Shown one piece after another: positions 14,219 through 38,275 of a stretch of 38,275 nucleotides of DNA; position 1 is the stretch's first letter; every line of letters begins with the position of its first letter. Made by a program: the position numbers and the translations under genes. Under the pieces are notes generated by a model that was not told the origin of the DNA, searched no databases, and saw only the letters and a program-made list of their open reading frames with translations. The DNA is from Promethearchaeota archaeon (lineage in GTDB: Archaea > Asgardarchaeota > Lokiarchaeia > Sigyniarchaeales > SOKP01): contig JAEOTZ010000029.1 of NCBI GenBank assembly GCA_016839585.1, positions 1 to 38,275 of the forward strand, given 5' to 3'.

Positions 14219-14300
14219 TACTTACGGTAGAGATGTAAAATATATATTGTTTTAGTTTAATATCGAATTATTAAGAGTTAGGATTAAGGTAAACAATAAA

Positions 14301-17462: not shown

Positions 17463-17513
17463 ATTTATAATTCAGATATGGAGTTAAAAAGGGATATTAA
17501 ATTCAGGTTTATT

Positions 17514-19807: not shown

Positions 19808-19935
19808 TTTAAGAATTTAAAGATAAAATTATTGAATTTTTTTAAAAATAAAGTGAACAGATAAAGAAGAAAATTTTTCTGAAAAGTTTAATTTGATAAA
19901 TTATATTTTTTCATATTAAAAAATCTAGAACCATT

Positions 19936-20898
19936 ATGTTAAAAAATAGAAACGTTTTAATTACTGGTGGAGCAGGTTTTATTGGAACACACCTATTTGA
20001 AACATTAATAAAAGATGATAATTATATTGTGATAATTGATAACTTCAATGAGTGTTATTATTCAGGAAAAGAGGAAAATTTAGTAAATGTGACTCAAAAT
20101 CATGAAATTCTAAAAGATTATAATATAATTAAAGGTGATTTATTAAACAACTCAATTTATAGCAAAATAAAATGTGAAATTGATATTATATTTCATCTTG
20201 CTGCTCATGCTGGAGTAAGATATTCAATTCAAAATGCAGAAGAAGTAACAAGAAATAACATTATAAGTTTTGTCAACATTTTAGAATATGCTTTACATAA
20301 TAATGTAAAAAAAGTTGTTTATGCGTCTTCTTCTTCTGTATATGGAAATCCAATTTATACACCTGTAGATGAAGAACATCCAAAGAATCCAATATCTCCA
20401 TATGGTGTATCAAAATTATGTGGTGAAGTTTATGCTGATTACTATTTTAGAGAATATTCCTTGCCAATTACTTCATTGAGATTTTATACTGTTTATGGGC
20501 CAAGAGGTAGACCTGATATGGCTATTGGAAAATTTTTTAATCTAATTTTTCAAGATAAAGAAATAATAGTATATGGAGATGGAGAGCAGCTCCGAGACTT
20601 CACTTTTATTTCTGATATTGTGAATGGACTAATTTTATCAGGAGAAAAAAAGAAGTCTTCTGGTGAAGCATTTAATTTAGGTTGGTCTAATCCAATCACA
20701 GTTAATCATTTAGTTGATATGATGTTTAAAATTGCAAATAAAACTAAAAAAGTTAAATATATAGAAAGACAAAAGGGAGATGTAGATATTACCCATTCAG
20801 ATATTAAGAAAGCGAATGATATGCTAAATTATCAGCCAAGAGTGAATATTGAAGAGGGATTACAAAAAACATACAAGTGGCATAAAAATAATGTTTAA
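19936..20898 (+). CDS. NAD-dependent sugar-nucleotide epimerase, most like UDP-glucuronate 4-epimerase
   Basis: TGGAGFIG, HLAAHAGVRYS, ASSSSVYG, YGVSK (YxxxK), RFYTVYGPRGRPDMA. Confidence 0.88.
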   Translation: MLKNRNVLITGGAGFIGTHLFETLIKDDNYIVIIDNFNECYYSGKEENLVNVTQNHEILKDYNIIKGDLLNNSIYSKIKCEIDIIFHLAAHAGVRYSIQNAEEVTRNNIISFVNILEYALHNNVKKVVYASSSSVYGNPIYTPVDEEHPKNPISPYGVSKLCGEVYADYYFREYSLPITSLRFYTVYGPRGRPDMAIGKFFNLIFQDKEIIVYGDGEQLRDFTFISDIVNGLILSGEKKKSSGEAFNLGWSNPITVNHLVDMMFKIANKTKKVKYIERQKGDVDITHSDIKKANDMLNYQPRVNIEEGLQKTYKWHKNNV

Positions 20899-20954
20899 AA
20901 TTTGATTGTTATTTTATAGCTAAAGTTAAAAAATAAAGTAATTCTCAAGGAAGG

Positions 20955-22082
20955 ATGTTTTTAAAAAAAATAAAGGTCTGTCTTGTCTCGCATGGGTATC
21001 CAATTTATAATAAAAAATACAATGATTGTTATAAAATTGGAGGTGCTGAGGTACAACTATTTCTCCTTTCAAAAGAACTTGCTAAGAATGATAATTTTGA
21101 AGTAAATCTTATTATTGGAAATTATAAAGGAAAAACTTCAATTGAATTTTTCGGAAAAATTAAGATATTTGGTTTGCGCTCTCTTAGTAAAAAATTAATA
21201 AATCATTTCATAAGTATGATTAAATTGTTTTTCACATTAAAACAAATAAATCCAGATTTTGTAATTAAGAGAGCTGCTAGTATGGTTACTGGAGTCTGCG
21301 CACTATATTGTAGAATATTTAAAAAAAATTATATTTATTCCATTGCAAATGAAACCGATGTAAATGGAGAATCAGAGAAAAATATTTTTGGTAAAATCTA
21401 TAAATTTGGTTTAGATAATACTACTTATCTTGTAGCCCAAAATTTTAACCAAATTATTGAATTAGAAAAATTCAAGAAAAGAAAATTCTACAATATTAAA
21501 GTTATTAAAAGTGGTTATGAAATTAAAAAAGAAGAGCCTAAAACCCAAAAAAAAATTATATTATGGGTTGCAAGGGCTATTGAATGGAAGAGACCAGAAA
21601 TATTTTTCATGCTTGCGAAGCAATTTCCTAATGAAAAATTTATAATGATATGTAATGAGGTCAATTATAAGAAAAACTATTACAAAACAATTGTTAAAAA
21701 AGCGTCAAATTTAAAAAATTTAACATTTATTAAATTTGTTCCATTTCACGAGATTGATGATTATTTTAAACAAGCAAAAATTTTAATCAATACATCTATT
21801 TATGAAGGGTTTCCAAACACATTTATTCAAGCTTTTAGAAATGAAACTCCTGTTATAAGTCTAAATGTGAATCCTGATAACATATTTTCAAAAAACAAAA
21901 TAGGATATTTTTGTAATGATGATTTTGAAAAAATGAAAGCAAATTTAAGTCTATTATTAGAAAAACGTGATTTATATAAAACTTATTCTAAAAATGCATA
22001 TCACTTTTGTAGAGAAAATCATGATATAAAAAAAATTGGACATCAATGGATTCAATTGATTGATACTCTTTCTAAATCATAA
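20955..22082 (+). CDS. GT4 family glycosyltransferase (paralogue of 23350..24498)
   Basis: IGGAEVQ, WVARAIEWKRP, NTSIYEGFPNTFIQA. Confidence 0.92.
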   Translation: MFLKKIKVCLVSHGYPIYNKKYNDCYKIGGAEVQLFLLSKELAKNDNFEVNLIIGNYKGKTSIEFFGKIKIFGLRSLSKKLINHFISMIKLFFTLKQINPDFVIKRAASMVTGVCALYCRIFKKNYIYSIANETDVNGESEKNIFGKIYKFGLDNTTYLVAQNFNQIIELEKFKKRKFYNIKVIKSGYEIKKEEPKTQKKIILWVARAIEWKRPEIFFMLAKQFPNEKFIMICNEVNYKKNYYKTIVKKASNLKNLTFIKFVPFHEIDDYFKQAKILINTSIYEGFPNTFIQAFRNETPVISLNVNPDNIFSKNKIGYFCNDDFEKMKANLSLLLEKRDLYKTYSKNAYHFCRENHDIKKIGHQWIQLIDTLSKS

Positions 22083-22186
22083 ACTGTTACACACTTGAAT
22101 GTACTATTTTTATATATAGTGTGCTATTAAGTTGTAATATTACTTGAAATCCCTTATAAAGAGTGAAACAAAAATTTTTTAATTTA

Positions 22187-22242
22187 ATTTATAATTTTTC
22201 TAATATTTCTAATTATTAATAAGTTATTACTCAAAATTGAAT
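22187..22242 (+). repeat. 56-bp intergenic direct repeat, copy 1
   Basis: atttataatttttctaatatttctaattattaataagttattactcaaaattgaat; 53/56 identical to 29457..29512. Confidence 0.85.
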
Positions 22243-22252
22243 TCTTTTAAAA

Positions 22253-23335
22253 ATGAAAATCTGTTTTCTCATTACCGGTTTAGGAATAGGGGGTGCTGAA
22301 AAACATTTATTTAATCTTGTTCCAAGACTAAAATTCAATGTATTTATTATTAGCCTGTCTAATAATAATGATTTTGGAGTAAAAATAGAGCAAAAAGGAA
22401 TAAAAGTTTATTATTTAGGATTAAATAAAATTAATTTACCTTTAGTAATATGGCGATTTAAAAAGATAATAAAGAAAGAGAGACCTGATATAATAGATAC
22501 ATATCTTATACACTCTAATATTTTTGGCAGAATCTTTGGAAAAATTTTTGGGATTAAAAAAATAATTTCTTCAGTAAGAAATGATTATACAAGTTTGAAA
22601 TTGTTATCGTTTATTGATAGAATTACTCAATGTTTTGTTAGTTTATATATCTTAAATTCAAAAGCATTGCTTTTCTATGCTAATAAAAAATGTAAAGTTC
22701 CTAAGGAAGAACTTGAAATTATTACTAATGGGATTGATTTAGAATCTCTTTACAATCAAGTTGATAAAAAATATAATATACGAAATAAATTAAATTTAAA
22801 AAACGAGGATTTTATTGCTGTTACTATAGCTCGATTATTAAAACAAAAAGATATTTCTACGCTAATTCAAGCAATCAAATATATTAACAAAAATATCCAT
22901 TTAATTATCGTTGGTGATGGCCCAGAAAAAAAAAATCTTATTAACCTTTCAAGAAAGTTAAACCTTTCAGATAGGATATTTTTTCTGGGAACTAGATATG
23001 ACGTTCCTAATATTTTATATAGCTCTAATGTCTTTATATTACCTAGTATAAGAGAAGGTATGAGTAATGCGTTATTAGAGGCAATGGCATTAAAAAAATG
23101 CTGTATTGTTAGCGATATTGCTCCTAATATAGAGTTGATACAGGATGGTTTTAATGGAATGGTTTTTAAAACGAGTAATAAAAGACATCTTGCAGAGGTT
23201 ATTGAAAAAGTATATAATACTCCCAATTTAAAAATTATTGAACAAGAGGCTTACAATACTATAAACAAGAAATATCGAATTAATAATACGATAAAAAAAT
23301 ATGAAAGAATAATAGAAAAATTGTATAATAAATAG
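22253..23335 (+). CDS. GT4 family glycosyltransferase
   Basis: LGIGGAEK, ARLLKQKD, VGDGPE, LPSIREGMSNALLEAMA. Confidence 0.93.
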   Translation: MKICFLITGLGIGGAEKHLFNLVPRLKFNVFIISLSNNNDFGVKIEQKGIKVYYLGLNKINLPLVIWRFKKIIKKERPDIIDTYLIHSNIFGRIFGKIFGIKKIISSVRNDYTSLKLLSFIDRITQCFVSLYILNSKALLFYANKKCKVPKEELEIITNGIDLESLYNQVDKKYNIRNKLNLKNEDFIAVTIARLLKQKDISTLIQAIKYINKNIHLIIVGDGPEKKNLINLSRKLNLSDRIFFLGTRYDVPNILYSSNVFILPSIREGMSNALLEAMALKKCCIVSDIAPNIELIQDGFNGMVFKTSNKRHLAEVIEKVYNTPNLKIIEQEAYNTINKKYRINNTIKKYERIIEKLYNK

Positions 23336-23349
23336 AGAACTTAGAAACT

Positions 23350-24498
23350 ATGTGTTATAAAAATACAAAAATAATAAAAGTTTGTATTGTTTCACATTGG
23401 GGATATCCCCTATATAATAAAAAATGTAAAGATACTTTTGGTGGTGGTTCAGCAGTTCAATTATATCTCTTATCAAAAGCATTTGCCAATAATAAAAATT
23501 TTAATATTCATATTATGACTGGCAATCATGATATGACTAAAAATAGAATTGAATTTATAGAAAATATCTTGCTCTATAGTATCCTACCCATTAAAAGAAC
23601 ATTTCTAAATTATTTCCGTTATATTCTTAATATTTTTAAATATTTAATCTTAATTAATCCTGATGTTGTTATTCAAAGAGGTTCCGGTGTTAAAACAGGG
23701 CTTATAGCGCTTTATTGTAAGTTATTTAAAAAGAAATTTATCTACTCAGTTGCGAGTGCAAAAGACGTAAATGGTGTCTCTGAGAGGGGGCTTAAGGGTA
23801 AATTTTTCAAATTTGGTATTGATAATGCAGATTTTATAGTGGCTCAAAATGATGACCATATTAATGAATTAGAAACATATAAACAAAAAAAATTTAAAAA
23901 CCTTAAGGTCATAAGAAGTGGATATGAAATTAATGAAATTGACATTAAATTTAACGAAAGTATCTTATGGGTTGGAAGAGCAATTAAATTAAAAAGACCT
24001 GATCTATTTTTAAAACTTGCTCAAAAATTTCCTAATGAAAAATTTATTATCATTTGTTATAAGAGGAAAAAGGATATAGATTATTGGAAGTCTATTTATA
24101 ATGAAGCCAAAAAAATTTTTAATTTAGAATTTATAGAATTTGTTCCCTTTCATAAAATTGCTAACTATTTTAAAGAAGCTAAAATATTTATCAACACATC
24201 GACATATGAAGGATTTCCCAACACATTTATTCAAGCTTTTATGAATAAAATACCTGTTATTAGTTTAAATGTGGATCCTGATGATATTATAACAGAAAAT
24301 AAGACTGGGTTTTTTTGTAATGACGATTTTAATAAAATGGAGGAAAATTTGAAATTAATACTTGAAAATAAGGAATTATATAAACAGTATTCAAATAATT
24401 CTTACAATTATGCAAAAAAAAATCATGATATTAAAAAGATAAGTGATGAATGGTTTTTATTAATTCGAGAACAACAAAAAAAAAAAAAGAATTATTAG
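23350..24498 (+). CDS. GT4 family glycosyltransferase (paralogue of 20955..22082)
   Basis: GGGSAVQ, WVGRAIKLKRP, NTSTYEGFPNTFIQA. Confidence 0.92.
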   Translation: MCYKNTKIIKVCIVSHWGYPLYNKKCKDTFGGGSAVQLYLLSKAFANNKNFNIHIMTGNHDMTKNRIEFIENILLYSILPIKRTFLNYFRYILNIFKYLILINPDVVIQRGSGVKTGLIALYCKLFKKKFIYSVASAKDVNGVSERGLKGKFFKFGIDNADFIVAQNDDHINELETYKQKKFKNLKVIRSGYEINEIDIKFNESILWVGRAIKLKRPDLFLKLAQKFPNEKFIIICYKRKKDIDYWKSIYNEAKKIFNLEFIEFVPFHKIANYFKEAKIFINTSTYEGFPNTFIQAFMNKIPVISLNVDPDDIITENKTGFFCNDDFNKMEENLKLILENKELYKQYSNNSYNYAKKNHDIKKISDEWFLLIREQQKKKKNY

Positions 24499-24514
24499 TA
24501 TGGGATCCTATAAA

Positions 24515-24619
24515 ATGTGTGGAATTTGTGGATTCAATTTCGAAGATTAGCAATTGCTAATCAAAATGTGTGATCTTCTCGAACATAGAGGTTCTGATCA
24601 TGCGGGTTATTATGTTGAT
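24515..24619 (+). pseudogene. asnB: N-terminal remnant of an AsnB-family glutamine amidotransferase (asparagine synthase-like)
   Basis: Translates MCGICGFNFED*QLLIKMCDLLEHRGSDHAGYYVD: Ntn-amidotransferase MCGI start and HRG(P>S)D motif. In-frame TAG at 24548-24550; similarity ends at about 24620. Not in the ORF track. Confidence 0.8.
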
Positions 24620-24648
24620 TACTGGAACAGACATGCGGAATTATCAAT

Positions 24649-24846
24649 ATGATTAATTATCTTGAAAACTGCTTGTTGCCGGATCTCTTGATTGTGGGGG
24701 CTATGAAAACCCGAACTATCTCGATGGTTTGCTATCTGAACGAGCCAATAACACGCAAGGTACCTGAAAAACATTGGCGAAGGAAAAGAGCGTCGGAGAA
24801 CTTTTTAAACCATTTCACGAGGAATTATTTTTGCTGGCTGGACTAA
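24649..24846 (+). pseudogene. Degenerate N-terminal fragment of a PAPS-dependent sulfotransferase
   Basis: LPDLLIVGAMKTRTISMVCYLNEP resembles the 5'-PSB motif LP(D/N)FxIIGAxKxGTTSLxxYLxxHP; NHFTRNY..LD resembles the following 'HFF..Y..GLDWY'. Stops after 65 aa. Confidence 0.6.
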
Positions 24847-24950
24847 ATTATAAGTATAGCATAGTAGGTGAAATATCGTTTTGGAAATAGATAATTTTAT
24901 AACGAATGAATGCACATCCTCATTAGATAGGAAAAACTGAGCGTGAACAT

Positions 24951-25712
24951 ATGATAAAACGTGTCGCCTTTAAGGCAAAACGAATCAGGTCTAAGTTAAG
25001 ACGTATCCCACGAAAGATAAAACGTGTACCACGCAATATCCTTTGGCAACTCTTCCCCACCAAAACGAAGGAATGGTACGCACTGGGCACCTGGAAGCGG
25101 AAGAAAGCAGTAGAAGGACGACTGAAAAATAGCCATTTCAAGGAATTCTATACAAAACACTTTGAAATCGAGGATAGCTTCTATTCAGGCAAAAGGATAC
25201 TGGATATCGGTTGCGGTCCGCGCGGGAGTCTCGAGTGGGCAGACATGGCCTTGGAGCGGATAGGGTTGGATCCTCTGGCGAAACAATATCTTAAACTTGG
25301 CGCCGATGAGCATAAAACAAAATATGTAGCGGCCTATTCCGAGTCGATTCCCTTTGATGACGATTACTTTGATGTAATATCCTCCTTCAATTCATTAGAT
25401 CATGTTGCAGATGTTCAAATCACGATATCAGAGATCAAGCGCGTACTTAAGCCGGGAGGGGAGTTCTTGTTATTAACGGAGTTAAACCACAAGCCCAAAA
25501 TTAGAGAACCCCAGGTTTTTTCATGGGATATCGTCCATGCTTTTCTACCTGAATTCGAGATCCTGAACGAAAAACATTATGAAATGAAAGTAAAAGGTAT
25601 GTATGAGAGTATCCGCTATGGCATACCCTTCAATCATTCGGATCGCTCTAAACGTACTGGCATTCTTTCGGCAAAATTCCGCAAATTTGGGTATTTAACC
25701 TTTGGCAAATAA
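24951..25712 (+). CDS. Class I SAM-dependent methyltransferase
   Basis: ILDIGCGP (motif I), GLDP, ESIPFDDDYFDVI, NSLDHV, EIKRVLKPGG. Confidence 0.92.
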   Translation: MIKRVAFKAKRIRSKLRRIPRKIKRVPRNILWQLFPTKTKEWYALGTWKRKKAVEGRLKNSHFKEFYTKHFEIEDSFYSGKRILDIGCGPRGSLEWADMALERIGLDPLAKQYLKLGADEHKTKYVAAYSESIPFDDDYFDVISSFNSLDHVADVQITISEIKRVLKPGGEFLLLTELNHKPKIREPQVFSWDIVHAFLPEFEILNEKHYEMKVKGMYESIRYGIPFNHSDRSKRTGILSAKFRKFGYLTFGK

Positions 25713-26029
25713 AATAATAGAAAAACTGCTCGCGAAATGGGATGCCTTGATTTTGGCAGTTTTTGTGGAGAATGCATGTAACGACAGTGCCGCAACAAAA
25801 ATTGGAGGTACATTACCTTAACAGAATGATTGAGGTTTTTCCTCTTAAACCAAATGTTTCTAAACCGTTTTGATTTGCAGGAATGTTATTTTAAAAGCAA
25901 GAAAACATAACATGAACAAATCAGCTATCCTGCTACTGTCAATTCCAAAGCTGGAGACAGTGGTTGAAATATTATCTAAATCGGTAATCGTTTCTACGGG
26001 AAGGCATTCGAAGAGAAGGATAGAGAAAT

Positions 26030-26107
26030 ATGAAATACGAAATAGTCAGATATTGCCCAGAGTTTAAGAGTCACATAGTGGAACTACTATATTATATGAT
26101 TCAATAA
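26030..26107 (+). pseudogene. Short N-terminal gene fragment, possibly GNAT acetyltransferase-like
   Basis: ATG preceded by purine-rich AGGATAGAGAAAT; MKYEIVRYCPEFKSHIVELL has the beta1-alpha1 pattern of GNAT N-termini; it runs into the AT-rich GT-C remnant and stops. Confidence 0.35.
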
Positions 26108-27095
26108 TTTTTGCGGGGATAATATATTTGTTTATTCTATTTTATTTATTTATTTATAAAAAAAAATAAACTTAAAGACGATAATAATATCCATTTCTTC
26201 GATTATAATTGGAATGGGCACATTAATCTTTGGGTTTTATTTAATGGGTGGTTCTTTTATCCCTATAAGTGCAAAAGTTAAAACCTCATTAAACCAAAAT
26301 CCTACATTTCCTCAATATTTATTTAATATTATGTTCATTAATACTATATTGAAATTTCCATTCAGTGAAATTTTCTCAGCAATTCTTATAATATTTCTGA
26401 TCTCACTTAATTTGAAATTCCTCTCTGTTTTTTTAAAGGAAAAAGAAAAAAAAATTTCATTGAAAAGTTTGATAATGATATTATCATTATCTAATTTTAT
26501 ATATAGTTTGATTGTAGGATATGTATTTTATTGGTACTATATTTGGTACTTATCTTTAACTTTCATTCTCTGGGCAATTGTAATCACTTATATAATTACT
26601 GTTATAATAACCAAATTTCAAGAGAAAATTCATATCTCTAATAGAAATTTCAATTATAAAAAAAAAATTTCTTATGTATTTATGATATTTATTTCAACAT
26701 CCATTCTGGGCTTTATAGTATTAAATGAAATCGATTATTATTTTAATTATCGTTATTCCATGCGTTATAATGCAGCAATTTGGTTAAAGTCTAATACAAA
26801 TGAGGAGGATATTATTGGATCTTGGAATGCAGGTCAGATTGGGTTTTTTCCAGATAGAAGAGTCATCAATCTCGATGGATTAATAAATAATTATGATTAT
26901 TATGAAAGAATATTATTGAATGATAATAAATTCAATTCAAGTGAATTTGTGGAATATCTTAACGAAAACAATGTATCATATATTGTTGACTATAAGTTTT
27001 ACGGATTTAAACCATGGTATGCAAATTTTACATTAATCAAGGAATTTACATCTCAACGATACGATACGATACAGGTTTGGGCTAAGATTCCTTAA
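26092..27095 (+). pseudogene. 5'-truncated, frameshifted GT-C-like membrane protein
   Basis: The frame of ORF 26214 extends upstream (KINLKTIIISISSIIIG) to an A9 run at 26158-26166. The adjacent frame reads LYDSIIFAGIIYLFILFYLFIYKKK, and adding one A joins them. C-terminal AIWLKSNT..IGSWNAGQIGFF..VINLDGLIN is typical of GT-C soluble domains. Confidence 0.65.
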
Positions 27096-27306
27096 TTTTC
27101 ATTATGATTTCCATTAATAGCTCCTTCAGGGGATTAAAATCCGGAAAAATCTTATTTTAAAAAGTATATTATTTAAAAAAAAGCCCGTAGCACTAGAGCA
27201 CAAAAATCATTTGATCATTTTATAGAAAAAATCCTTTTAATTTTTATTGAATAGAATCCTATATAGTACTAAAGCTAATATTCATAATAATCGTTAATTA
27301 ACTATT

Positions 27307-28218
27307 ATGGAAAATCCTTTAGTAAGTGTAATAATACCTACATTCAACCGGGCCTATTTACTAAAAAAAGCAATTTACTCCGTATTAAATCAAACCTATA
27401 AAAATTTTGAGATTATTATTGTTGATGATGGGTCCACGGATAACACAGAAGAATTAATAAGGGGTTTTGAAAATGAAAAAATAAGATATTTTAAATTAGA
27501 ACATACTGGATTACCTGCAGTAGTTAGAAATAAAGGATTTGAGGAGTGTCACGGGGAACTCATTGCTTTTTTAGATTCAGATGATTTTTGGATACCTAAT
27601 AAATTAGAACTGCAAATCAGAGCATTTAAAAATCATGAAAACATATTATTAGTCGCTTCAAGAAGAATTATACTACCTGATAAAATAACATATCATCTTA
27701 ATTATCAAAAAAGGGGTGTTGTTTCTTTTAGAGAATTGATTAGGCGAAACGTTATACCCACCTCAAGCGTCATTATTAGAAGAGAAGTTATCGAAAAAGT
27801 AGGAAAATTCGATGAAGATTATAGGCTTAGATCTGGTCAAGATTTTTCTTACTGGTTAGATATTTTATCATATCGAGATAAATCAATTCTAATTTTAAAA
27901 GCACCTTTAATAATTTTTAGAGTTCATGATAAAACTCTTACATTTGAAAGAAGGCAAGAATCAGATTTTTTCAAGGATAGTTTCTATAAACGTAAATATT
28001 TAATATTAAAATACGAAGATGTTGATAGGAATTATGTTAATTCTATTTTGAGAAAATGGGTCAAAAAGATTTTACTTGATCATAGAAAAAAATTACTACA
28101 TGAAGGAAGTCTTAATTTTAGGAAAATATTAAGAGATAATTTATTAACTCCCTATGAAAAGATTAAAATCATCATAGTCGTTTTGCTAAAGAAAATCCAA
28201 ATGAAATTTTTCAAATAG
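27307..28218 (+). CDS. GT2 family glycosyltransferase
   Basis: PLVSVIIPTFNR, IVDDGSTD, RNKG, AFLDSDDFWIPNKLE, GQD. Confidence 0.93.
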   Translation: MENPLVSVIIPTFNRAYLLKKAIYSVLNQTYKNFEIIIVDDGSTDNTEELIRGFENEKIRYFKLEHTGLPAVVRNKGFEECHGELIAFLDSDDFWIPNKLELQIRAFKNHENILLVASRRIILPDKITYHLNYQKRGVVSFRELIRRNVIPTSSVIIRREVIEKVGKFDEDYRLRSGQDFSYWLDILSYRDKSILILKAPLIIFRVHDKTLTFERRQESDFFKDSFYKRKYLILKYEDVDRNYVNSILRKWVKKILLDHRKKLLHEGSLNFRKILRDNLLTPYEKIKIIIVVLLKKIQMKFFK

Positions 28219-29588: not shown

Positions 29589-31244
29589 TTATTTTCTTCT
29601 TGTAAGTTTCTTTAAAACATTTAAAGTTTTAAGCATAATTCTATTTAAGAATTTATCCTTACTTAATAAAGACTCAAAATATTCAATATCAGGTGATTTT
29701 ACAATTCCAAAAGCTAGATTCATTAATATAAAGAGTGCAAAGAATACTATAATAGAAAAGAAGTCAAGATTTATGAAGAATGTTAACCCTAAACCATCTA
29801 AAATTGTCCTGCTGATTTCCTTTAGTATTAAATTCCCCAAAATTACCGTAATAACTAAAGGGATAAAAAAAGTTAAGTATTGCAATATAATCCTTTTAAT
29901 ATTTATTTTAATATTTCCAATTTTGTAAATTGAGTAAACTTGTATTATTAATGATATTATATTTCCGATTATTAAACCAAAGATTATTGCACCCTCAATC
30001 CCGCCATAGATTAAACCGATAAAAAACAATGGTATAGAATACGTCGTATAGAGCATATTTAATAGAAATGACATTTTTACTTTATTCTGGGCGTTTAAAA
30101 GCGATAGGACAAAGATTTTGAATATTTGAAAAATTGCCGCAAGAACAAATAATTTAAGAATATTTGAAAAAATTATACGAGATTCGAGAAAAACAAAATC
30201 TAAGAAAAAGTCTACACTAAAAAATAGAATTCCAGATAAAATTAATAATAAGAATAATGTAATCCTATTCGCAATCTTAAAAATTTTAACAAGTTGGTAA
30301 TAATCCTTTTTTGTACTCAAACTTGTAAAAGAAGTCATTAAAGGAAAATAAAAAGATCCTACTGACACTTGCCCGATATTACTGTAATTTAAGGCGATAT
30401 TAAATCCAGTAACTGCTCCTGCCGATTCAAAGAATCCAATACTTTGTAGTTGTACTTCTCTCCAACCCTTTGCAATAAGATTAGAAAAAGTTGAATAACC
30501 ACCATATTTCACACTTTTCAAAATATCTTTTTTAAATGGTTCTATCTCATTCCCTACCGGCTTAATTCTAATTACTTTTATCAAAACATATAAAAACTTT
30601 AAAATAAATGGAATTAAGGAAGAAATCATGACAATCAAGGCTATAGTACCAATATTAATATTAATATCAAAAATATAGTAAATTAATAAAGGGCAAATAT
30701 GAAAAGCATTTTTTATGAGCAATATTAGAAAAAGAAAATTAAATTTACTAAAACCTCTATTTATAGCATCTAAAAGAGAGCCTAAACTATTGAAAAAAAT
30801 AGTTGGAGATAAGATAAATAAAATAGATACATTATCTTCCAAATTAATTGCAAATAAATCTTCAAAAATAGTGAAAAAAACGATGCTTATTAGAAGAATA
30901 ATTATTATAAATAATGATTTTATAATTAGTGTATTTTTAATTAATGCCTTGATTTTTTTTTTCTCATTTAAGGCAAGATATCTTGGAATATAATAATTTA
31001 AGGCATCACTCAGTCCTGGTGGTAATAAGGTTATAATAATATCAATAATTGTTATATATGAGGTTGCTAATATTAGAAAGTCCCAAGTTCTATTTGAAAT
31101 TAATCGTGCTAAAATAAAAGAATATATTAATGTGAAAAAAAAGGATCCATAATTTATTAAATAAGAGTAAAATGTATTTGTAGCTAATCTTTTGTACTCT
31201 TTATTATTTTTTAATTGATTATTTTCATGGTTATTATTTACCAT
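29589..31244 (-). CDS. Second Wzx/MurJ-like (MOP) oligosaccharide flippase, divergent from 3707..5038
   Basis: LATNTFYSY, ILARLIS, GLSDALNYYIPRY, AVTGFNIA, YGGIEGA; about 14 hydrophobic segments. Confidence 0.8.
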   Translation of the reverse strand: MVNNNHENNQLKNNKEYKRLATNTFYSYLINYGSFFFTLIYSFILARLISNRTWDFLILATSYITIIDIIITLLPPGLSDALNYYIPRYLALNEKKKIKALIKNTLIIKSLFIIIILLISIVFFTIFEDLFAINLEDNVSILFILSPTIFFNSLGSLLDAINRGFSKFNFLFLILLIKNAFHICPLLIYYIFDININIGTIALIVMISSLIPFILKFLYVLIKVIRIKPVGNEIEPFKKDILKSVKYGGYSTFSNLIAKGWREVQLQSIGFFESAGAVTGFNIALNYSNIGQVSVGSFYFPLMTSFTSLSTKKDYYQLVKIFKIANRITLFLLLILSGILFFSVDFFLDFVFLESRIIFSNILKLFVLAAIFQIFKIFVLSLLNAQNKVKMSFLLNMLYTTYSIPLFFIGLIYGGIEGAIIFGLIIGNIISLIIQVYSIYKIGNIKINIKRIILQYLTFFIPLVITVILGNLILKEISRTILDGLGLTFFINLDFFSIIVFFALFILMNLAFGIVKSPDIEYFESLLSKDKFLNRIMLKTLNVLKKLTRRK

Positions 31245-31552: not shown

Positions 31553-33058
31553 ATGAATATTTTCTGGATTGTGACCGATTCGATATGTAGCTATGAAAGA
31601 TCTGATCTGCATAGTTTACTTCCAATCTACAAAAAATTAAAAAAAAATAAAGAAGGTTTCTTTTTTAAAGACGCATTATCTCAGTTCACATCAACAAATT
31701 TATCTATTTTTTCATTTTTAACAGGTAGATTTCCTTATTATATATTTCCTGATTATTACCCTTCAATCAAATTTCTTCCAAGTTATAAATATAAAAATAA
31801 TATCATCCCATTGAAGAAAAAAAATTATAAGATTCAAGCAATTATGCACTCGAAAGAAGCAGTCGATGTTTTTAAGGATATTCTTAATCCATATTATGTG
31901 AATAATATGTATCATGGAGATCATTTGTTAGATAGTAAAGAAGTTTACCATTTTTTAGCTGAAAAAATTAATGAACTCGATATAAATGAGAACAATTTCA
32001 TATATGTACATTTCAGACCAACTGATCCTGAAACAAATTCATACATGAATAAAATAGTTTATTTATTAAAGGAGATGGGTTTTTGGGAAAAATCCATCAT
32101 TATTATTAATTCTGATCATGGTTATTATGATAAGTCAATTTATAAAAAGATAAATTTAATACATTTTAATGATATTCACCAAACCTCATTATTATCAGCT
32201 TTATTTATAAAATTACCCCCCAATTTAACATCTAAAATCCCAAGAACTATTAAAAAAAGAGTTTATTTAATGGATATTATGGAAACAGTTCTTGATTATC
32301 TTAATATTAAAGCAGATCATGAGAGAGAATCAATTTCTTTTAAAGAATTAATAGAAAAAGATATAGATATTAATAAAAACAGAAAAATTAGAGGAGATTG
32401 TTATTTAATGTTTCAACCAATTAAAAAAACCACGATAATCAAAGATAATTGGAAGCTTTTTAATAATAACGGAAAATTTGCCTTGTATAATCTTAATGAA
32501 GATAATCTAGAAAAAAAAGATGTAAAAAAAAAATATCCTAAGATTTATACCGAACTGTATCAATTTTATTTGGAGACAGAATTGAAAGCTTATAAAATAT
32601 TTAAATCAACCCTAAATACACTTTATAATCATAATAATTTGACTTTACTAGAATATGAGAATATTTTAGTTCCTCATCAATTTCCTCCACAACTAGCAAA
32701 TTATTTAAAAGAAAAGTTAAAGATAAAGAATAAAATAGTGAAACCATCTGAAATCGGTATCTCAAATTCAATCAAAAATCAAAGCTTGATTACAATTCTA
32801 TTTTTTAATAGATTAACTGGTTATAGATTAAAAAAACTGCAAAGAAAATACAGAAAATATACAAAAAAATTCATAATTTTAGATACAGCATTATCTGATG
32901 TATCAGATCAAATAAATAATACTGGTTATATGAAATTTGTTATTAGATCATTAATTACCCGAAAAAAACAGTTGTTTCAAAGATGGAAAGAGATACTAGT
33001 ATGGACTTTATATTTTCCACTTTATTTCAATAAATTTATGAAAAAATACTATAATTAA
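31553..33058 (+). CDS. Alkaline phosphatase/sulfatase-superfamily protein with Thr at the nucleophile position
   Basis: MNIFWIVTDS (metal Asp9), T48-NLSIFSFLTGRFP aligned to CxPSRxxLLTG, YVHF, INSDHG, WKL...ALYNLNED.LE. Confidence 0.75.
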   Translation: MNIFWIVTDSICSYERSDLHSLLPIYKKLKKNKEGFFFKDALSQFTSTNLSIFSFLTGRFPYYIFPDYYPSIKFLPSYKYKNNIIPLKKKNYKIQAIMHSKEAVDVFKDILNPYYVNNMYHGDHLLDSKEVYHFLAEKINELDINENNFIYVHFRPTDPETNSYMNKIVYLLKEMGFWEKSIIIINSDHGYYDKSIYKKINLIHFNDIHQTSLLSALFIKLPPNLTSKIPRTIKKRVYLMDIMETVLDYLNIKADHERESISFKELIEKDIDINKNRKIRGDCYLMFQPIKKTTIIKDNWKLFNNNGKFALYNLNEDNLEKKDVKKKYPKIYTELYQFYLETELKAYKIFKSTLNTLYNHNNLTLLEYENILVPHQFPPQLANYLKEKLKIKNKIVKPSEIGISNSIKNQSLITILFFNRLTGYRLKKLQRKYRKYTKKFIILDTALSDVSDQINNTGYMKFVIRSLITRKKQLFQRWKEILVWTLYFPLYFNKFMKKYYN

Positions 33059-33239: not shown

Positions 33240-34931
33240 ATGAGCTTAAAAAATCGAATTTCACCTGAAGATAGAAGGAAATCCTTAAAAAATTTACTTA
33301 AAGAAAAAGATTTTATAAGAGCTATTGAAGCTCATAATGGTTTAAGTGCAATAATTGCTAATGATATTAAAGAAAAAGTAAGAAACGAAATTATTGAATT
33401 TGATGCCATTTGGGAAAGTAGTTTAACGGATAGTGCCACAAAGGGCTATCCAGATGCTGAAATAATAGGACCAGAATCTAGATATGAAACGATACGCCAA
33501 ATTTTACATAGCTCTCATAAACCATTAATAGTAGATGGAGATACTGGCGGAGAAGCAACAAATTTTGAATATTTTGTGAAAAATTTGGAAGATTTTGGTG
33601 TTTCAATGGTTATTATTGAAGATAAAAAATTTCCAAAAAGAAATAGTTTGGAAGCGGGGGCAATACAAATCCAAGAAGATCCAGATATTTTTTCGATAAA
33701 GATTAAAAGAGGTAAAAGTGTTTTATTATCGCAGGATTTTATGATAGCAGCTAGAATAGAAAGTCTTATTTCTGGAGCAGGAATAGAAGATGCCTTATTT
33801 AGAGCTAGAAAATATTTAATGGCTGGTGCTGATGCGATAATGATCCATTCAAAGGATTCAAAACCTAATGACATTTTTAAGTTTGCTGAGGAATATAATA
33901 AGTTAAGCTCTGAATTAGGTTTTAGAAAGCCATTAATATGTGTTCCTACTACATATAATACCATTACGGAAGACCAATTAAAAGAACATGGCTTTAATAT
34001 TGTGATATATGCAAATCATCTTTTACGATCATGTCATAAAGCTATGAAAGAAACAGCCTCTTTAATTTTGAGGAGTCAAAGATGTTTTGAGGCAGAACCT
34101 ATGTGCAGTTCTGTTAATACTATTTTTAAAGATGTAGGTTTTCTTGAAGTAAAAGAAAAAGATATGAAATATTCTAAAGGAAAAACACGTGTAATCATAC
34201 CCGCAGCAGGTAAAGAACCAATTTTCAAAATTCCTAAATCAATGATAAAAATTAATGGAAAACCAATTCTTCAAAGACAAATAGAAACTTTAAATAGCTG
34301 CGGTATTTATAACATTACTGTTGTTAGGGGATTTAAAAAAGAACTTATTGATATTCCAGGAGTTAAATATATTGATAATGAGTATTATGAAGATTATGGA
34401 TTATTATATTCTTTATTTAGAGCAGAAAGTGAAATGGAAGGGGGATTTATCTATATAAATTCAGATATATTGTTTGATAGACATATCATAAATTCTCTTT
34501 TAGAATCTAAAAAGGATATTGTTTTGGTTGTTGATAATTCTTATGCTTACCATAAACATGAGATTGACAAAAGATTAGATCTAGTTATGACATTGAATAA
34601 GCCATCTGACCAAAGGAGATTATTATATTCTCGAGATAATGAAGTAATAAGAATTGGTAAGAATATAGATAAAAGTATGGCAGACTATGAATACATAGGG
34701 ATTGCTTATTTTTCTGAATATGGTATTGATATAGTAAAAAAAATATTTCATGATTGTAGTTCTAATAATAGAGGATGTTTTCATGCTGTTTCTATTGAGA
34801 AAGCTACTTTTAATGATTTTATTCAAGAAATAATTGATCGTGGTTTTAAGGTTCATAATCTAGAGATACATAAAGGATGGATAGAGATTCATAATAAAAA
34901 AGATCTTGAACTGGCTGAAAAGCTAATTTAA
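33240..34931 (+). CDS. pepM: Phosphoenolpyruvate mutase fused to a C-terminal NTP-transferase (LicC/PntC-like) domain
   Basis: PEP mutase signature EDKxxxxxNS (EDKKFPKRNS, 33618-33647), EAHNGLSA, WESSLTDS, DGDTG, IYANHLLR. From about 34191: VIIPAAG..PKSMIKINGKPIL...SDILF...GWIEIH. Confidence 0.95.
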   Translation: MSLKNRISPEDRRKSLKNLLKEKDFIRAIEAHNGLSAIIANDIKEKVRNEIIEFDAIWESSLTDSATKGYPDAEIIGPESRYETIRQILHSSHKPLIVDGDTGGEATNFEYFVKNLEDFGVSMVIIEDKKFPKRNSLEAGAIQIQEDPDIFSIKIKRGKSVLLSQDFMIAARIESLISGAGIEDALFRARKYLMAGADAIMIHSKDSKPNDIFKFAEEYNKLSSELGFRKPLICVPTTYNTITEDQLKEHGFNIVIYANHLLRSCHKAMKETASLILRSQRCFEAEPMCSSVNTIFKDVGFLEVKEKDMKYSKGKTRVIIPAAGKEPIFKIPKSMIKINGKPILQRQIETLNSCGIYNITVVRGFKKELIDIPGVKYIDNEYYEDYGLLYSLFRAESEMEGGFIYINSDILFDRHIINSLLESKKDIVLVVDNSYAYHKHEIDKRLDLVMTLNKPSDQRRLLYSRDNEVIRIGKNIDKSMADYEYIGIAYFSEYGIDIVKKIFHDCSSNNRGCFHAVSIEKATFNDFIQEIIDRGFKVHNLEIHKGWIEIHNKKDLELAEKLI

Positions 34932-34958
34932 CTATTTTTCGAAAAGTGGAATAATGAA

Positions 34959-36095
34959 ATGATTGAATTTATTGAAAATGGCTCTATTAAAAATCTTAAA
35001 CGCATTTTAAAAGAAAATAACTTTGAAAATATTTTTTACATTACAGGTAATTCACCTTTAGAACAAGGTAATGTTGATAAAATCCAATTTATAATTGAGA
35101 ATGAATGTAAATTTTTTCATTTTAATGATATTGCACCTACACCAACAGTAGAAGGTATTAAAAAGGCACTAAATTTATTTAAGAAAGGTAATTATGATTT
35201 AATTTTAGCTATGGGAGGGGGGTCTGTTTTAGATATTGGTAAAAGTGTATCAATTTTTTCTACTAATAAAGGAGAAATTAAAGATTTTCTTTTAAAGAAA
35301 CTAAAAATTAAAAGAAAAGGTACTCCATTAATATTAATTCCAACTACAGCAGGAACGGGTAGTGAGGCTACTCATTTCGCCGTTATCTTTATCGAAAAAA
35401 CAAAATATTCTTTAGCAGATCCTAAAATTTTACATGCGGATTATGCAATCGTAGACCCTGAATTAACATATAGTCTCCCTAAGAGAGTTACTGCTTATAC
35501 AGGTATGGATGCATTAAGTCAGGGAATAGAATCTTATTGGAATATCAATTCTACAGATGAATCAAAAGAATATGCAAAAAAAGCAATAGAGCTTGTTATG
35601 AATAATTTATTAAAAGCTGTTCATAATCCTAATGAAGAATCTAGATACAACATGGCACTTGCCGCTAATTATGCTGGAAAAGCTATAAATATAACAAAAA
35701 CAACAGCATGTCATGCCATTTCGTATCCTATTACCTCATGTTTTAATGTACCTCATGGCCATGCAGTAGCTTTAACTTTACCTTCTATGATTGTCTTTAA
35801 TTCGAGAGTTAATGAAAATGATGTATTAGATACACGTGGAGTTGAATACGTAAAAAATATTATGAGTAAATTAGTCTCTATAATAGGTGTTTCTAGTTTT
35901 ATTGAAACAAAAGAAAAAATCAAAAATTTAATGGTAGATATTGAATTAGAAATAAAATTACAGGATTTGGGAATAAAATCTCAAGAAGATATTGAAATAA
36001 TTATAAAAAATGGTTTTAATCCTGATAGAGTTAAAAATAATCCGAGATTATTAACAGAAACTCAGTTAAGAAAGATTTTAGAAGAAATAAGATGA
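34959..36095 (+). CDS. Fe-containing (group III) alcohol dehydrogenase; probable phosphonoacetaldehyde reductase (PhpC-like)
   Basis: GGGSVLD, IPTTAGTGSEAT, DALSQGIES, TTACHAISY, PHGHAV; located between pepM and ppd. Confidence 0.88.
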   Translation: MIEFIENGSIKNLKRILKENNFENIFYITGNSPLEQGNVDKIQFIIENECKFFHFNDIAPTPTVEGIKKALNLFKKGNYDLILAMGGGSVLDIGKSVSIFSTNKGEIKDFLLKKLKIKRKGTPLILIPTTAGTGSEATHFAVIFIEKTKYSLADPKILHADYAIVDPELTYSLPKRVTAYTGMDALSQGIESYWNINSTDESKEYAKKAIELVMNNLLKAVHNPNEESRYNMALAANYAGKAINITKTTACHAISYPITSCFNVPHGHAVALTLPSMIVFNSRVNENDVLDTRGVEYVKNIMSKLVSIIGVSSFIETKEKIKNLMVDIELEIKLQDLGIKSQEDIEIIIKNGFNPDRVKNNPRLLTETQLRKILEEIR

Positions 36096-36808
36096 AAGTT
36101 ATATTATTAAATGCGGGGATAGGTAAAAGGTTAGCCCCTTTAACCAACAATTTGCCAAAATGCCTTGTAAAAATAAGTAATAATGAAACAATTTTAGATC
36201 ATCAATTAAAAAATATTCTTAAGTATGGATTTAAAGATTTTATCATTCCAACAGGTCCGTTTGAGGAGAAAATTAAAAATCATATTATAGAACATTATCC
36301 TTCAATTAACGTTCAATATATTAATAATCCACTTCATGACAAAACAAATTATATATATTCCATATATTTAGTAAAAGACATGATTAATGATGATGTTTTG
36401 TATTCTCATGGGGATTTAATATTTTCTGGAAATTTAGTAAAATTATTACTTAAATCGAGTTATAAAAATTGTGTATTAGTTAATAAAGAAATTCCACCTC
36501 CAGTAAAAGACTTTAAAGCAATTATATTAAATGATAGGATAAGTAAGATTGGAGTTAATTTGTTTGGACCAAATACAGCATTCTTAGCCCCATTATACAA
36601 ACTAACTAAGGAATTTATGTTAAGTTGGCTTAATCAAATAGAGAAATTTATAAATGATAACAAAGTAAATTATTATGCTGAAGATGCTTTAAATGAAATT
36701 CTGGATACTCTTGTTCTAAAACCTTGTTATTATAATGAATTCTGTGTCGAAATTGATGATTATGAAGATTTAGAAGGAGTAAAAAATTATTTTAATAATA
36801 ATAAGTAA
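36092..36808 (+). CDS. Phosphocholine/phosphonate cytidylyltransferase-like NTP transferase (LicC/PntC family)
   Basis: LLNAGIGKRLAPLTNNLPKCL, TNYIYS, HGDLIF, EIDDYEDL; ATGA overlap with the upstream stop indicates translational coupling. Confidence 0.85.
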   Translation: MKVILLNAGIGKRLAPLTNNLPKCLVKISNNETILDHQLKNILKYGFKDFIIPTGPFEEKIKNHIIEHYPSINVQYINNPLHDKTNYIYSIYLVKDMINDDVLYSHGDLIFSGNLVKLLLKSSYKNCVLVNKEIPPPVKDFKAIILNDRISKIGVNLFGPNTAFLAPLYKLTKEFMLSWLNQIEKFINDNKVNYYAEDALNEILDTLVLKPCYYNEFCVEIDDYEDLEGVKNYFNNNK

Positions 36809-36831
36809 AATAGTAGTTAATATAGGATAAA

Positions 36832-37968
36832 ATGATTTCTTGCGAAAATTTTTTTGAAATTCTAAAAATTAATAATTTTACATTCTTTACAGGAATTCCA
36901 GACTCAACTTTTAAAGATTTGATGAAATTCTTAGCTGATAATGAAAGTAAAGATCTAAGAAATATTGTTGCATGTAATGAATGCGAAGCTATTGCATTAG
37001 CATCTGGTTATCATTTAGCAACTAATAGAGTAGGAATTGTATATATGCAGAATTCCGGACTCGGAAAGGCAGTCAATCCTTTAACATCCTTATGTGATCC
37101 TGATGTATATTCAATTCCTATTCTTTTAATGATAGGATGGCGTGGTGAACCTGGAAAAATTGATGCTCCTCAACATAAAAAAATGGGAAAGATTACATTA
37201 CCATTATTGGACACACTCCAAATACCTTATATCGTATTGGAACCAGATTTGAGTGTGGTTAAAAAAGAACTTACTAAAGCATTAAATTATTTCAATAAAA
37301 ATAAGGGTCCTTACGCTTTTGTTTTTCGAAGAGGTTTCTTTAAAGATTATGAAATGAGATTTAAGCAATTAAATAACTATAGTCTAACCACAAAAGAAGT
37401 AATTCAATTGATTATGGATAATTTGAACAACGATGAAATCATTGTTTCAAATACAGGTTATATTACACGAGAGCTATATGAATATAGAGAATCAAGAAAT
37501 AAAGATCATCATAAAAGTTTTTATAATATTGGATCTATGGGGTGTGCTAGCTCGATAGGATTAAGTATAGCGCTACACAAACCAAAAAATAGAGTTATAG
37601 TATTTGATGGAGATGGTGCAGCTATTATGCAAATGGGTGCTTTTACAACAATAGGAAAAAATTCACCTTCTAACTTTGTCCATATTATTTTAGATAATGA
37701 AGCTCATGAATCTACTGGTGGTCAACCAACTAATTCATCTAATGTTGACTTTGTTAATGTAGCTTTAGCATCAAATTATAAATGGGTTGTTCGAGTTGAA
37801 ACCACAGAAGATTTATTAAAATCGATTGATAAAATTAAAAACCGAAAGGGACCAATCTTAGTATTAATAAAAATCAAAATTTATTCTAGATCAGAATTAA
37901 AAAGACCAAGTAAAAGTCCAAAAGAGTATAAAGAAGGATTTATGAGATACTTAAATGATTTAGATTAA
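36832..37968 (+). CDS. ppd: Phosphonopyruvate decarboxylase (single-chain, ThDP-dependent)
   Basis: FFTGIPDS, YMQNSGLG..VNPLTSL, GWRGEPG..D.PQH..MG, TGYITREL, GSMG, DGDGAAIMQMG...DN..HESTGGQ. Confidence 0.93.
   Translation: MISCENFFEILKINNFTFFTGIPDSTFKDLMKFLADNESKDLRNIVACNECEAIALASGYHLATNRVGIVYMQNSGLGKAVNPLTSLCDPDVYSIPILLMIGWRGEPGKIDAPQHKKMGKITLPLLDTLQIPYIVLEPDLSVVKKELTKALNYFNKNKGPYAFVFRRGFFKDYEMRFKQLNNYSLTTKEVIQLIMDNLNNDEIIVSNTGYITRELYEYRESRNKDHHKSFYNIGSMGCASSIGLSIALHKPKNRVIVFDGDGAAIMQMGAFTTIGKNSPSNFVHIILDNEAHESTGGQPTNSSNVDFVNVALASNYKWVVRVETTEDLLKSIDKIKNRKGPILVLIKIKIYSRSELKRPSKSPKEYKEGFMRYLNDLD

Positions 37969-38089: not shown

Positions 38090-38275
<186 letters not shown>

What the first reader, a model, noticed from the sequence alone, without database searches (positions are those of the whole stretch)
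33240..37968. Complete 2-hydroxyethylphosphonate pathway in a probable Asgard archaeal surface-glycan locus
Seen: pepM(+NTase), Fe-ADH, NTase and ppd with gaps of 27, -4 and 23 bp, embedded among GTs, flippases and epimerases. Established: PepM makes phosphonopyruvate, Ppd makes phosphonoacetaldehyde, a PhpC-type group III ADH makes 2-HEP, and PntC-type cytidylyltransferases activate phosphonates for attachment to glycans or lipids. No AEP transaminase and no MpnS/HEPD dioxygenase is present in the window. Inference: the cell makes an HEP-decorated glycan or glycoprotein coat by an O2-independent route. Archaeal phosphonate synthesis is best known from Nitrosopumilus (methylphosphonate); I know of no characterised Asgard phosphonoglycan, so this is the strongest candidate for an undescribed system here. 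The operon is AT-rich like its surroundings, unlike the 24.6-26.1 kb patch, suggesting it is not a very recent import from a GC-rich donor.
Basis: partly seen in the sequence, partly recalled or inferred. Interest (0 to 1): 0.88.

Follow-up and report, generated by a model that had tools for sequence, protein, structure and literature searches.

The report
Asgard hydroxyethylphosphonate glycan-decoration cassette
A Loki-type Asgard archaeon carries an intact four-gene set, of a kind known from bacteria, that should make the carbon-phosphorus compound 2-hydroxyethylphosphonate and activate it with CMP for attachment to cell-surface sugars; this compound also fits an unexplained sugar mass published for the cultured Asgard archaeon MK-D1.

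Summary
Window 33240-37968 encodes PepM fused to a LicC-like nucleotidyltransferase, an Fe-ADH, a second LicC-like nucleotidyltransferase and Ppd, with gaps of 27, -4 and 23 bp. PepM and Ppd pass their NCBIfam equivalog cut-offs.

The contig is archaeal. Its genome is a Lokiarchaeia MAG in the same order as Promethearchaeum syntrophicum MK-D1.

PepM occurs in 42 of 400 Asgard genomes sampled. Of the 37 other Asgard PepM loci not cut short, 33 carry the ADH, 3 carry an AEP transaminase in its place, and 1 carries neither. This genome has no AEP transaminase and no LicD.

The likely product is therefore CMP-2-hydroxyethylphosphonate, used to decorate a surface glycan. The transfer enzyme is not identified. 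The adjacent Thr-type sulfatase-fold protein (31553-33058) is the best candidate.

MK-D1 carries a related cassette. Its published N-glycan has an unassigned 311.08 Da residue, which equals HexNAc + C2H5O3P (311.077). AEP would give 310.093.

The chemistry is known from bacteria, and I found no paper describing it in Asgard archaea. This scan had already noted the same cassette in at least 11 other genomes, and the 311.08 Da link once. Verdict: new member of a known kind, moderately interesting and directly testable.

The parts
33240..34931 (+). PepM (aa 16-297) fused to a C-terminal LicC/PntC-like nucleotidyltransferase (aa ~318-563)
   Evidence: TIGR02320 at 329 bits, over the cut-off; PF12804; EDKKFPKRNS at aa 127. 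The C-terminal domain's best solved relatives are LicC 1JYK and PntC 6PD1.
34959..36095 (+). Group III Fe-dependent alcohol dehydrogenase, inferred phosphonoacetaldehyde reductase
   Evidence: PF00465 and PF25137; GGGS and HxxxxxxxxxxxxHGH motifs. It lies next to PepM/Ppd in 33 of 37 informative Asgard loci and is replaced by AEPT in 3. It is below every NCBIfam cut-off.
36092..36808 (+). Stand-alone LicC/PntC-like nucleotidyltransferase (238 aa), inferred HEP cytidylyltransferase
   Evidence: PF00483; the GIGKRL signature. Its best solved relative is LicC 1JYK, and it also hits PntC 6PD1. It is 48% identical to the equivalent gene of the MK-D1 cassette.
36832..37968 (+). Phosphonopyruvate decarboxylase (Ppd)
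   Evidence: TIGR03297 at 438.9 bits against a cut-off of 312.5; GDG...N TPP motif.
31553..33058 (+). Soluble sulfatase-fold (alkaline-phosphatase superfamily) protein of 501 aa with Thr/Ser at the nucleophile position; candidate HEP transferase (or phosphonate monoester hydrolase)
   Evidence: Weak PF00884 hit. The family is rare: 17 representatives below 1e-30 among 1.8 billion. AF2 model pLDDT is 92. Top Foldseek hits are S1 sulfatases, YejM and phosphonate monoester hydrolase. It is found with the cassette in 13 other loci, all of genus g1.
29589..31244 (-). Wzx-like flippase (Polysacc_synt) that travels with the cassette in relatives
   Evidence: PF01943. It is 54-91% identical next to the cassette in L018, L022, L125, L126, L133, L137, L146 and L149.
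38114..38275 (+). 5' end of an SDR sugar epimerase/dehydratase gene cut by the contig end; the gene continues on contig C5
   Evidence: Open-ended ORF. The complete 323-aa homologue lies at the C5 end. The junction is shown by G182:C18.
2673..28218 (.). Variable surface-glycan island: GT2/GT4 genes, a second flippase, UDP-GlcNAc 2-epimerase, an SDR, large membrane proteins and a methyltransferase
   Evidence: Pfam hits. The island is much shorter in relative L018, between the same flanking genes.
475..2226 (-). E2 (UQ_con) + RWD protein, the conserved flank of the island and an Asgard marker on the contig itself
   Evidence: PF00179 and PF05773. It is 59% identical at the corresponding flank of Promethearchaeota MAG locus L018.

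Best explanation
The four co-directional genes form a phosphonyl-tailoring cassette. PepM converts PEP to phosphonopyruvate. Ppd makes that step irreversible by decarboxylating the product to phosphonoacetaldehyde. The Fe-ADH reduces phosphonoacetaldehyde to 2-hydroxyethylphosphonate (HEP). A LicC/PntC-like nucleotidyltransferase then condenses HEP with CTP to give CMP-HEP. CMP-HEP donates the phosphonyl group to a sugar hydroxyl of a surface glycan built by the surrounding glycosyltransferase and flippase island. The route needs no O2. Shown here: the family identity of PepM and Ppd, the domain identity of the ADH and both nucleotidyltransferases, the archaeal (Lokiarchaeia) host, conservation of the cassette, and the mutual exclusivity of the ADH and the AEP transaminase. 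Inferred: the ADH substrate, which of the two nucleotidyltransferases acts on HEP and why there are two, the acceptor glycan, and the transferase. My best candidate for the transferase is the adjacent Thr-type sulfatase-fold protein, at roughly 35% odds.
For: PepM and Ppd are over their equivalog cut-offs and keep their motifs. The gene spacing of 27, -4 and 23 bp is operon-like. The same four genes lie together in 29 other Asgard genomes and, cut short by contig ends, in 4 more. They also lie together in Thermoplasmata and Methanosarcinales loci. Only three Asgard cassettes lack the ADH while keeping PepM and Ppd, and exactly those three carry a true AEP transaminase (437-444 bits) in its place. 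G000 has no AEPT and no LicD. Both nucleotidyltransferases are closest to LicC and PntC among solved structures. The cassette sits inside a GT/flippase island. MK-D1 (G143) carries CyTase-PepM, Ppd, Fe-ADH and an NTase that are 41-49% identical to the window's genes. Its published N-glycans differ by 108.00 Da on a HexNAc derivative that the authors left unassigned (PMC11284389). HexNAc + C2H5O3P is 311.0770 Da, and the glycan total is 909.299 against the reported 909.30.
Against: The ADH is a generic group III enzyme. It scores highest against lactaldehyde reductase (198 bits) and is below the cut-off of the phosphonate ADH model. No phosphonate has been measured in any Asgard archaeon. The transferase is unknown. 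The sulfatase-fold candidate is confined to one genus and could equally be a hydrolase, since Foldseek also hits phosphonate monoester hydrolases. The 108.00 Da mass is reported to two decimals, is isobaric with ethyl or dimethyl phosphate, and comes from a different family whose cassette has a different PepM fusion. The role of the second nucleotidyltransferase is unexplained.
Confidence: 0.72

Rival explanations
1. CMP-HEP is used for a phosphonolipid head group rather than a glycan.
For: In a congeneric relative (L122) a CDP-alcohol phosphatidyltransferase-like gene lies beside the sulfatase-fold gene and the cassette.
Against: That gene, the extra NTase and the MFS transporter of relatives are absent from the whole G000 genome. 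Here the cassette is surrounded by GTs and flippases. The MK-D1 mass shift sits on a glycan residue.
Confidence: 0.1
2. The end product is not HEP. The ADH acts on another aldehyde or alcohol, and the cell makes AEP through an unrecognised aminotransferase, or makes a diffusible phosphonate natural product.
For: The ADH is below all family cut-offs. Two nucleotidyltransferases are more than a simple HEP route needs.
Against: The ADH and AEPT are mutually exclusive within otherwise identical cassettes. The conserved module holds no further tailoring enzymes. AEP (310.093) does not fit the MK-D1 residue.
Confidence: 0.1
3. HEP is only an intermediate towards methylphosphonate or hydroxymethylphosphonate, as in Nitrosopumilus.
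For: HEP is the substrate of MpnS and HEPD (established knowledge).
Against: Those enzymes need O2, and no such gene appears in the conserved module or among the Pfam-annotated ORFs of the window. I did not run a dedicated genome-wide search for MpnS or HEPD. Methylphosphonate on HexNAc would be 281.066 Da.
Confidence: 0.03
4. The contig is a mis-binned bacterial fragment.
For: Contig GC is 25% against 29% for the genome.
Against: The contig carries an E2+RWD gene. It is syntenic with named Promethearchaeota MAGs. In sister genome G182, a single 90-kb contig spans window 24754-38275 (97.6% identical) and continues into the end of C5 (96% identical), which carries Arf-like GTPase genes.
Confidence: 0.02

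Closest known systems
Bacterial phosphonyl-tailoring (Pnt) clusters: Ppm fused to a PF12804 nucleotidyltransferase, Ppd and the PntC cytidylyltransferase (Rice et al. 2019, PMC6697681)
   Same: The PepM-PF12804 fusion, Ppd, a LicC-like cytidylyltransferase and a cell-surface glycan context. PntC 6PD1 is among the few solved relatives of both NTases.
   Different: An Fe-ADH takes the place of the AEP transaminase, so HEP rather than AEP is expected. The genome has no LicD-type transferase. The host is an Asgard archaeon.
PhpC/FomC-type phosphonoacetaldehyde reductase branch (HEP branch, 8.5% of ppm neighbourhoods; Li & Horsman 2022, PMC8942020)
   Same: A group III Fe-ADH next to Ppm and Ppd, the criterion used in that inventory.
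   Different: The ADH does not reach the TIGR03405 cut-off. That inventory covered 12 archaeal neighbourhoods from RefSeq and does not discuss Asgard archaea.
Fom1/Fom2/FomC early fosfomycin steps, where the Fom1 CyTase domain makes CMP-HEP
   Same: The logic of HEP synthesis followed by cytidylylation. The MK-D1 and probable L. ossiferum cassettes have the Fom1-like N-terminal CyTase-PepM fusion.
   Different: The window's fusion is C-terminal and LicC-like, not a PF01467 CyTase. No Fom3/Fom4-type downstream enzymes are present.
Methylphosphonate pathway of Nitrosopumilus maritimus (archaeal; from my own knowledge)
   Same: An archaeal PepM-Ppd-ADH front end that yields HEP, with the phosphonate esterified to a surface polymer.
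   Different: That pathway needs the O2-dependent MpnS. None is seen here, and the hosts are anaerobes.
HEP-bearing exopolysaccharides of Stigmatella aurantiaca and Glycomyces (from my own knowledge, not checked here)
   Same: HEP as a glycan substituent.

Membership tests
PEP mutase (TIGR02320) | Score over the equivalog cut-off | tested here: met
   329 bits against a cut-off of 319.55; 331 bits in the genome search.
PEP mutase (TIGR02320) | EDK-x5-NS active-site motif that separates PepM from other isocitrate-lyase superfamily members | tested here: met
   EDKKFPKRNS at aa 127; invariant in 21 aligned homologues.
PEP mutase (TIGR02320) | Mutase activity | not testable with these tools
   Needs an enzyme assay.
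Phosphonopyruvate decarboxylase (TIGR03297) | Score over the equivalog cut-off and a TPP-binding GDG...N motif | tested here: met
   438.9 bits against 312.5; GDG-x26-NE at aa 260.
PhpC/FomC-type phosphonoacetaldehyde reductase | Group III Fe-ADH fold next to PepM and Ppd | tested here: met
   PF00465 and PF25137; adjacency conserved in 33 of 37 informative Asgard loci.
PhpC/FomC-type phosphonoacetaldehyde reductase | Membership of the phosphonate-cluster ADH model TIGR03405 | tested here: not met
   191.6 bits against a cut-off of 423.7. The best hit is lactaldehyde reductase at 198 bits, also below its cut-off.
PhpC/FomC-type phosphonoacetaldehyde reductase | Reduces phosphonoacetaldehyde to HEP | not testable with these tools
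   Indirect support only: mutual exclusivity with AEPT.
PntC / LicC-type cytidylyltransferase | LicC-like NTase fold and signature | tested here: met
   NT238 has GIGKRL and hits LicC at E 1.7e-11 and PntC at 1.4e-6. The fused domain hits LicC at 1.3e-10 and PntC at 3e-4.
PntC / LicC-type cytidylyltransferase | CTP-dependent activation of a phosphonate | not testable with these tools
   Needs an assay with HEP, AEP and phosphocholine.
Bacterial Pnt pathway as a whole | AEP transaminase | tested here: not met
   Best genome hit is 48 bits against 360.8.
Bacterial Pnt pathway as a whole | LicD-family phosphotransferase | tested here: not met
   No PF04991 match in the 99%-complete genome.
Asgard (Promethearchaeota) host | Eukaryotic signature proteins and kinship to named Asgard genomes | tested here: met
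   Actin at 443 bits; E2+RWD on the contig; Arf-like GTPase on the joined contig; same order as MK-D1; named Promethearchaeota loci share the synteny.

The most novel reading that the evidence does not exclude
Lokiarchaeia cap a HexNAc of their protein N-glycans with 2-hydroxyethylphosphonate, which would be the first phosphonate-bearing N-glycan in Archaea and would explain the unassigned 311.08 Da residue of MK-D1. In this genus the group would be installed from CMP-HEP by a previously unknown soluble, Thr-nucleophile, sulfatase-fold phosphonyl transferase rather than by a LicD-type enzyme.
Probability: 0.2. Interest if true: 0.75.

Novelty: new member of a known kind. Interest (0 to 1): 0.55.

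Why it matters
Little is known about the cell surface of Asgard archaea, which has been studied in only a few cultured strains. This cassette gives a concrete, cheaply testable prediction for that surface: an O2-independent C-P decoration present in about one in ten sampled Asgard genomes, including strain MK-D1 and probably L. ossiferum. It also offers an assignment for a published but unexplained N-glycan residue. It extends phosphonate production to anoxic-sediment archaea, which bears on the sedimentary phosphorus redox cycle. Finally, the genome lacks both LicD and the AEP transaminase, which points to an unidentified phosphonyl-transfer enzyme.

Tried and rejected

No 16S rRNA gene is present in the MAG, so taxonomy rests on protein markers and kinship.

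The MK-D1 glycoproteomics paper has no supplementary tables held as text, so I could not check whether the cassette proteins were detected in its proteome.

The sulfatase-fold protein has no sequence relative among solved structures; only the fold search gave matches.

The Nitrososphaerota glycoproteomics paper does not mention phosphonates.

Literature searches for phosphonate together with Asgard, Lokiarchaeia or MK-D1 found no description of the pathway. They found only phnWX catabolism (PMC12106651), an unspecific statement that six archaeal phyla carry phosphonate BGCs (PMC11051675), and a PepM fusion on a Borg element.

The careful PepM tree did not finish in the time allowed, so one search is the quick tree with SH-aLRT support only.

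A bacterial or mis-binned contig was considered and rejected.

I did not search for MpnS or HEPD by a dedicated model.
Full report
**Observation.** The window is the whole 38,275-bp contig C12 of a 3.45-Mb MAG with 91 contigs, 29% GC and 99% completeness. Four + strand ORFs lie at 33240-34931, 34959-36095, 36092-36808 and 36832-37968.
- ORF 1 is a PEP mutase over its equivalog cut-off (TIGR02320, 329 against 319.55 bits) with the EDKKFPKRNS motif. It is fused to a C-terminal PF12804 nucleotidyltransferase.
- ORF 2 is a group III Fe-ADH.
- ORF 3 is a 238-aa nucleotidyltransferase with a GIGKRL signature.
- ORF 4 is a phosphonopyruvate decarboxylase (TIGR03297, 438.9 against 312.5 bits).
- The rest of the contig holds GT2/GT4 genes, two Wzx-like flippases, a UDP-GlcNAc 2-epimerase, SDR enzymes and large membrane proteins.

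- The genome has four actin-family genes, the best at 443 bits.
- The contig itself carries an E2(UQ_con)+RWD protein.
- The closest PepM-NTase proteins and loci belong to MAGs named Promethearchaeota, Promethearchaeia or Lokiarchaeota.
- In the phylum-wide search the genome falls in the same order as G143.

The contig's low GC (25%) raised the question of mis-binning, so I tested it. Its last 775 bp are 90% identical to the reverse-complemented end of contig C5. In sister genome G182, a single 90-kb contig is 97.6% identical to window 24754-38275 and runs on, 96% identical, into that C5 end. C5 carries an Arf-like GTPase gene. C12 therefore joins C5, and the break is an assembly fork. Downstream of ppd come an SDR epimerase and a 759-aa protein without a Pfam match, not a transaminase.

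**What the cassette makes.** The ADH sequence alone does not say. It scores 198 bits to lactaldehyde reductase and 191.6 bits to the phosphonate-cluster ADH model TIGR03405, all below cut-off. The comparative evidence is stronger.
- PepM over cut-off occurs in 42 of 400 Asgard genomes sampled. I fetched the 41 other loci and mapped the window's and MK-D1's proteins onto them.
- Twenty-nine loci carry PepM, Ppd, ADH and the small NTase together. Four more show the ADH before a contig end.
- Four loci are cut directly after PepM, and one (G234) has an orphan CyTase-PepM.
- Three loci, all in one genus, have PepM-NTase, Ppd and an NTase but no ADH. These are three of only four genomes out of 400 with a true AEP transaminase (437-444 bits), and in each it sits in the ADH's slot.
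- The ADH and the transaminase are thus alternative occupants of the step after Ppd, which is what a phosphonoacetaldehyde reductase predicts.
- G000 has no AEPT: the best hit is 48 bits against a cut-off of 360.8.
- Both nucleotidyltransferases find LicC (1JYK) and PntC (6PD1) as their closest solved relatives. CMP activation of the phosphonate is therefore the expected next step, as in bacterial Pnt pathways (PMC6697681). Every Asgard cassette type carries two NTase activities, and I cannot say why.

**Transfer step.** The genome has no LicD. AglB lies on another contig. Directly upstream of pepM, 182 bp away and co-oriented, is a 501-aa protein.
- Its family is rare: 17 representatives below 1e-30 among 1.8 billion.
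- It folds confidently (pLDDT 92).
- It resembles S1 sulfatases, YejM and phosphonate monoester hydrolases.
- By motif register, which I judged from my own knowledge of the sulfatase CxPxR...LTG motif, Thr48 of FTSTNLS...LTGR sits at the nucleophile position, and SDHG is kept.
- It accompanies the cassette in 13 other loci, all in genus g1.

Relatives also carry a CDP-alcohol phosphotransferase-like gene, a further NTase and an MFS transporter. All three are absent from the whole G000 genome. The sulfatase-fold protein is my best candidate for the transferase here, but it could be a hydrolase. Because it is confined to one genus, it cannot be the general solution.

**Link to experiment.** MK-D1 (locus L110) carries the following genes:
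- an N-terminal CyTase-PepM (382 bits);
- Ppd (446 bits);
- an Fe-ADH whose best model is TIGR03405 (253 bits);
- a 240-aa NTase;
- a methyltransferase.

These proteins are 47%, 49%, 41% and 48% identical to the window's PepM, Ppd, ADH and NTase. G138, which has one contig of 6,035,313 bp and is probably Ca. Lokiarchaeum ossiferum, has the same set.

The published glycoproteomics of MK-D1 found three N-glycans: 304.13-Pen-Hex-HexNAc (801.30 Da), 304.13-Pen-Hex-311.08 (909.30 Da) and 304.13-Pen-Hex-311.08-303.10 (1212.40 Da). HexNAc fragment ions were seen in the latter two. The authors state that no structure matched 311.08 (PMC11284389). HexNAc plus a HEP ester (C2H5O3P, 107.9976) is 311.0770, and the whole glycan is 909.299. 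The alternatives do not fit:
- AEP gives 310.093;
- phosphoethanolamine gives 326.088;
- methylphosphonate gives 281.066;
- ethyl-sulfate gives 311.068.

This is a fit to two decimals, not a proof. Ethyl or dimethyl phosphate are isobaric.

**Evolution.** In a quick PepM tree (SH-aLRT support only), the window lies in a 99%-supported clade of 35 sequences, all from Asgard family f1. The nearest outside sequences are from Thermoplasmata and Chloroflexota, then Nitrospinota. The MK-D1 type lies in the other half of the tree, and starred branches force at least three origins within Asgard. Module GC (28%) matches the genome. The island between the conserved E2+RWD flank and the cassette varies greatly in length between relatives. 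Together these support an old, family-resident, optional cassette rather than a recent import.

**Novelty.** PepM-NTase fusions, Ppd, PhpC-like ADHs and HEP branches are established in bacteria; HEP accounts for 8.5% of ppm neighbourhoods (PMC8942020). NCBI already names these Asgard genes 'phosphoenolpyruvate mutase'. I found no paper that describes phosphonate biosynthesis in Asgard archaea. Earlier notes of this scan had already reported the same cassette in at least 11 other genomes and, once, the 311.08 Da link. I reached both before reading them, and my tests agree. The finding is a new member of a known kind, with a sharp and inexpensive experimental test.

Noticed in passing
window 37502-38275 and G000:C5 end (L017 about 13440-14200): The contig end is duplicated at 90% identity on the end of contig C5, as a ppd 3' fragment plus the SDR gene. 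The outermost 174 bp of C5 are unrelated and GC-rich. This looks like an assembly fork from strain heterogeneity at the edge of the glycan island.
   Followed up: partly
window 24754-25712: A SAM methyltransferase gene (24951-25712) has 43% GC in a 25% GC contig. It lies at the point (24754) where near-identity to sister genome G182 begins, so it may mark a recombination or import boundary.
   Followed up: no
window 475-2226 (-): A 583-aa protein with an N-terminal UQ_con (E2) domain and a C-terminal RWD domain is conserved at 59% identity at the same island flank in another Promethearchaeota MAG (L018).
   Followed up: no
L141, L143, L144 (G170, G173, G175): One Asgard genus carries an AEP version of the cassette (PepM-NTase, Ppd, NTase, AEP transaminase) instead of the ADH version. 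A fourth genome (G282) has a true AEPT at 475 bits but no PepM over the cut-off.
   Followed up: partly
L119 (G234:C151): An orphan CyTase-PepM gene has no Ppd, ADH or small NTase within about 9 kb on either side.
   Followed up: no
window 7330-9402 and 15519-17462: Two large proteins (690 and 647 aa) have no Pfam match. The first is 34.5% identical to a 705-aa DUF6077-like protein that follows ppd in relative L122, so it may be a glycan polymerase or GT-C-like enzyme.
   Followed up: no
L122 4331-9210 (G225): Congeners carry an extra block beside the cassette: a CDP-alcohol phosphotransferase-like gene, the sulfatase-fold gene, a third LicC-like NTase and an MFS transporter. It may be a salvage or import and relay module. 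Apart from the sulfatase-fold gene, it is absent from the whole G000 genome.
   Followed up: partly
PMC11284389 (MK-D1 N-glycan): The second unassigned residue, 303.10 Da, equals HexNAc + C4H4O3 (303.0954) by arithmetic, for example a succinylated HexNAc. This is numerology only, with no genetic support sought.
   Followed up: no
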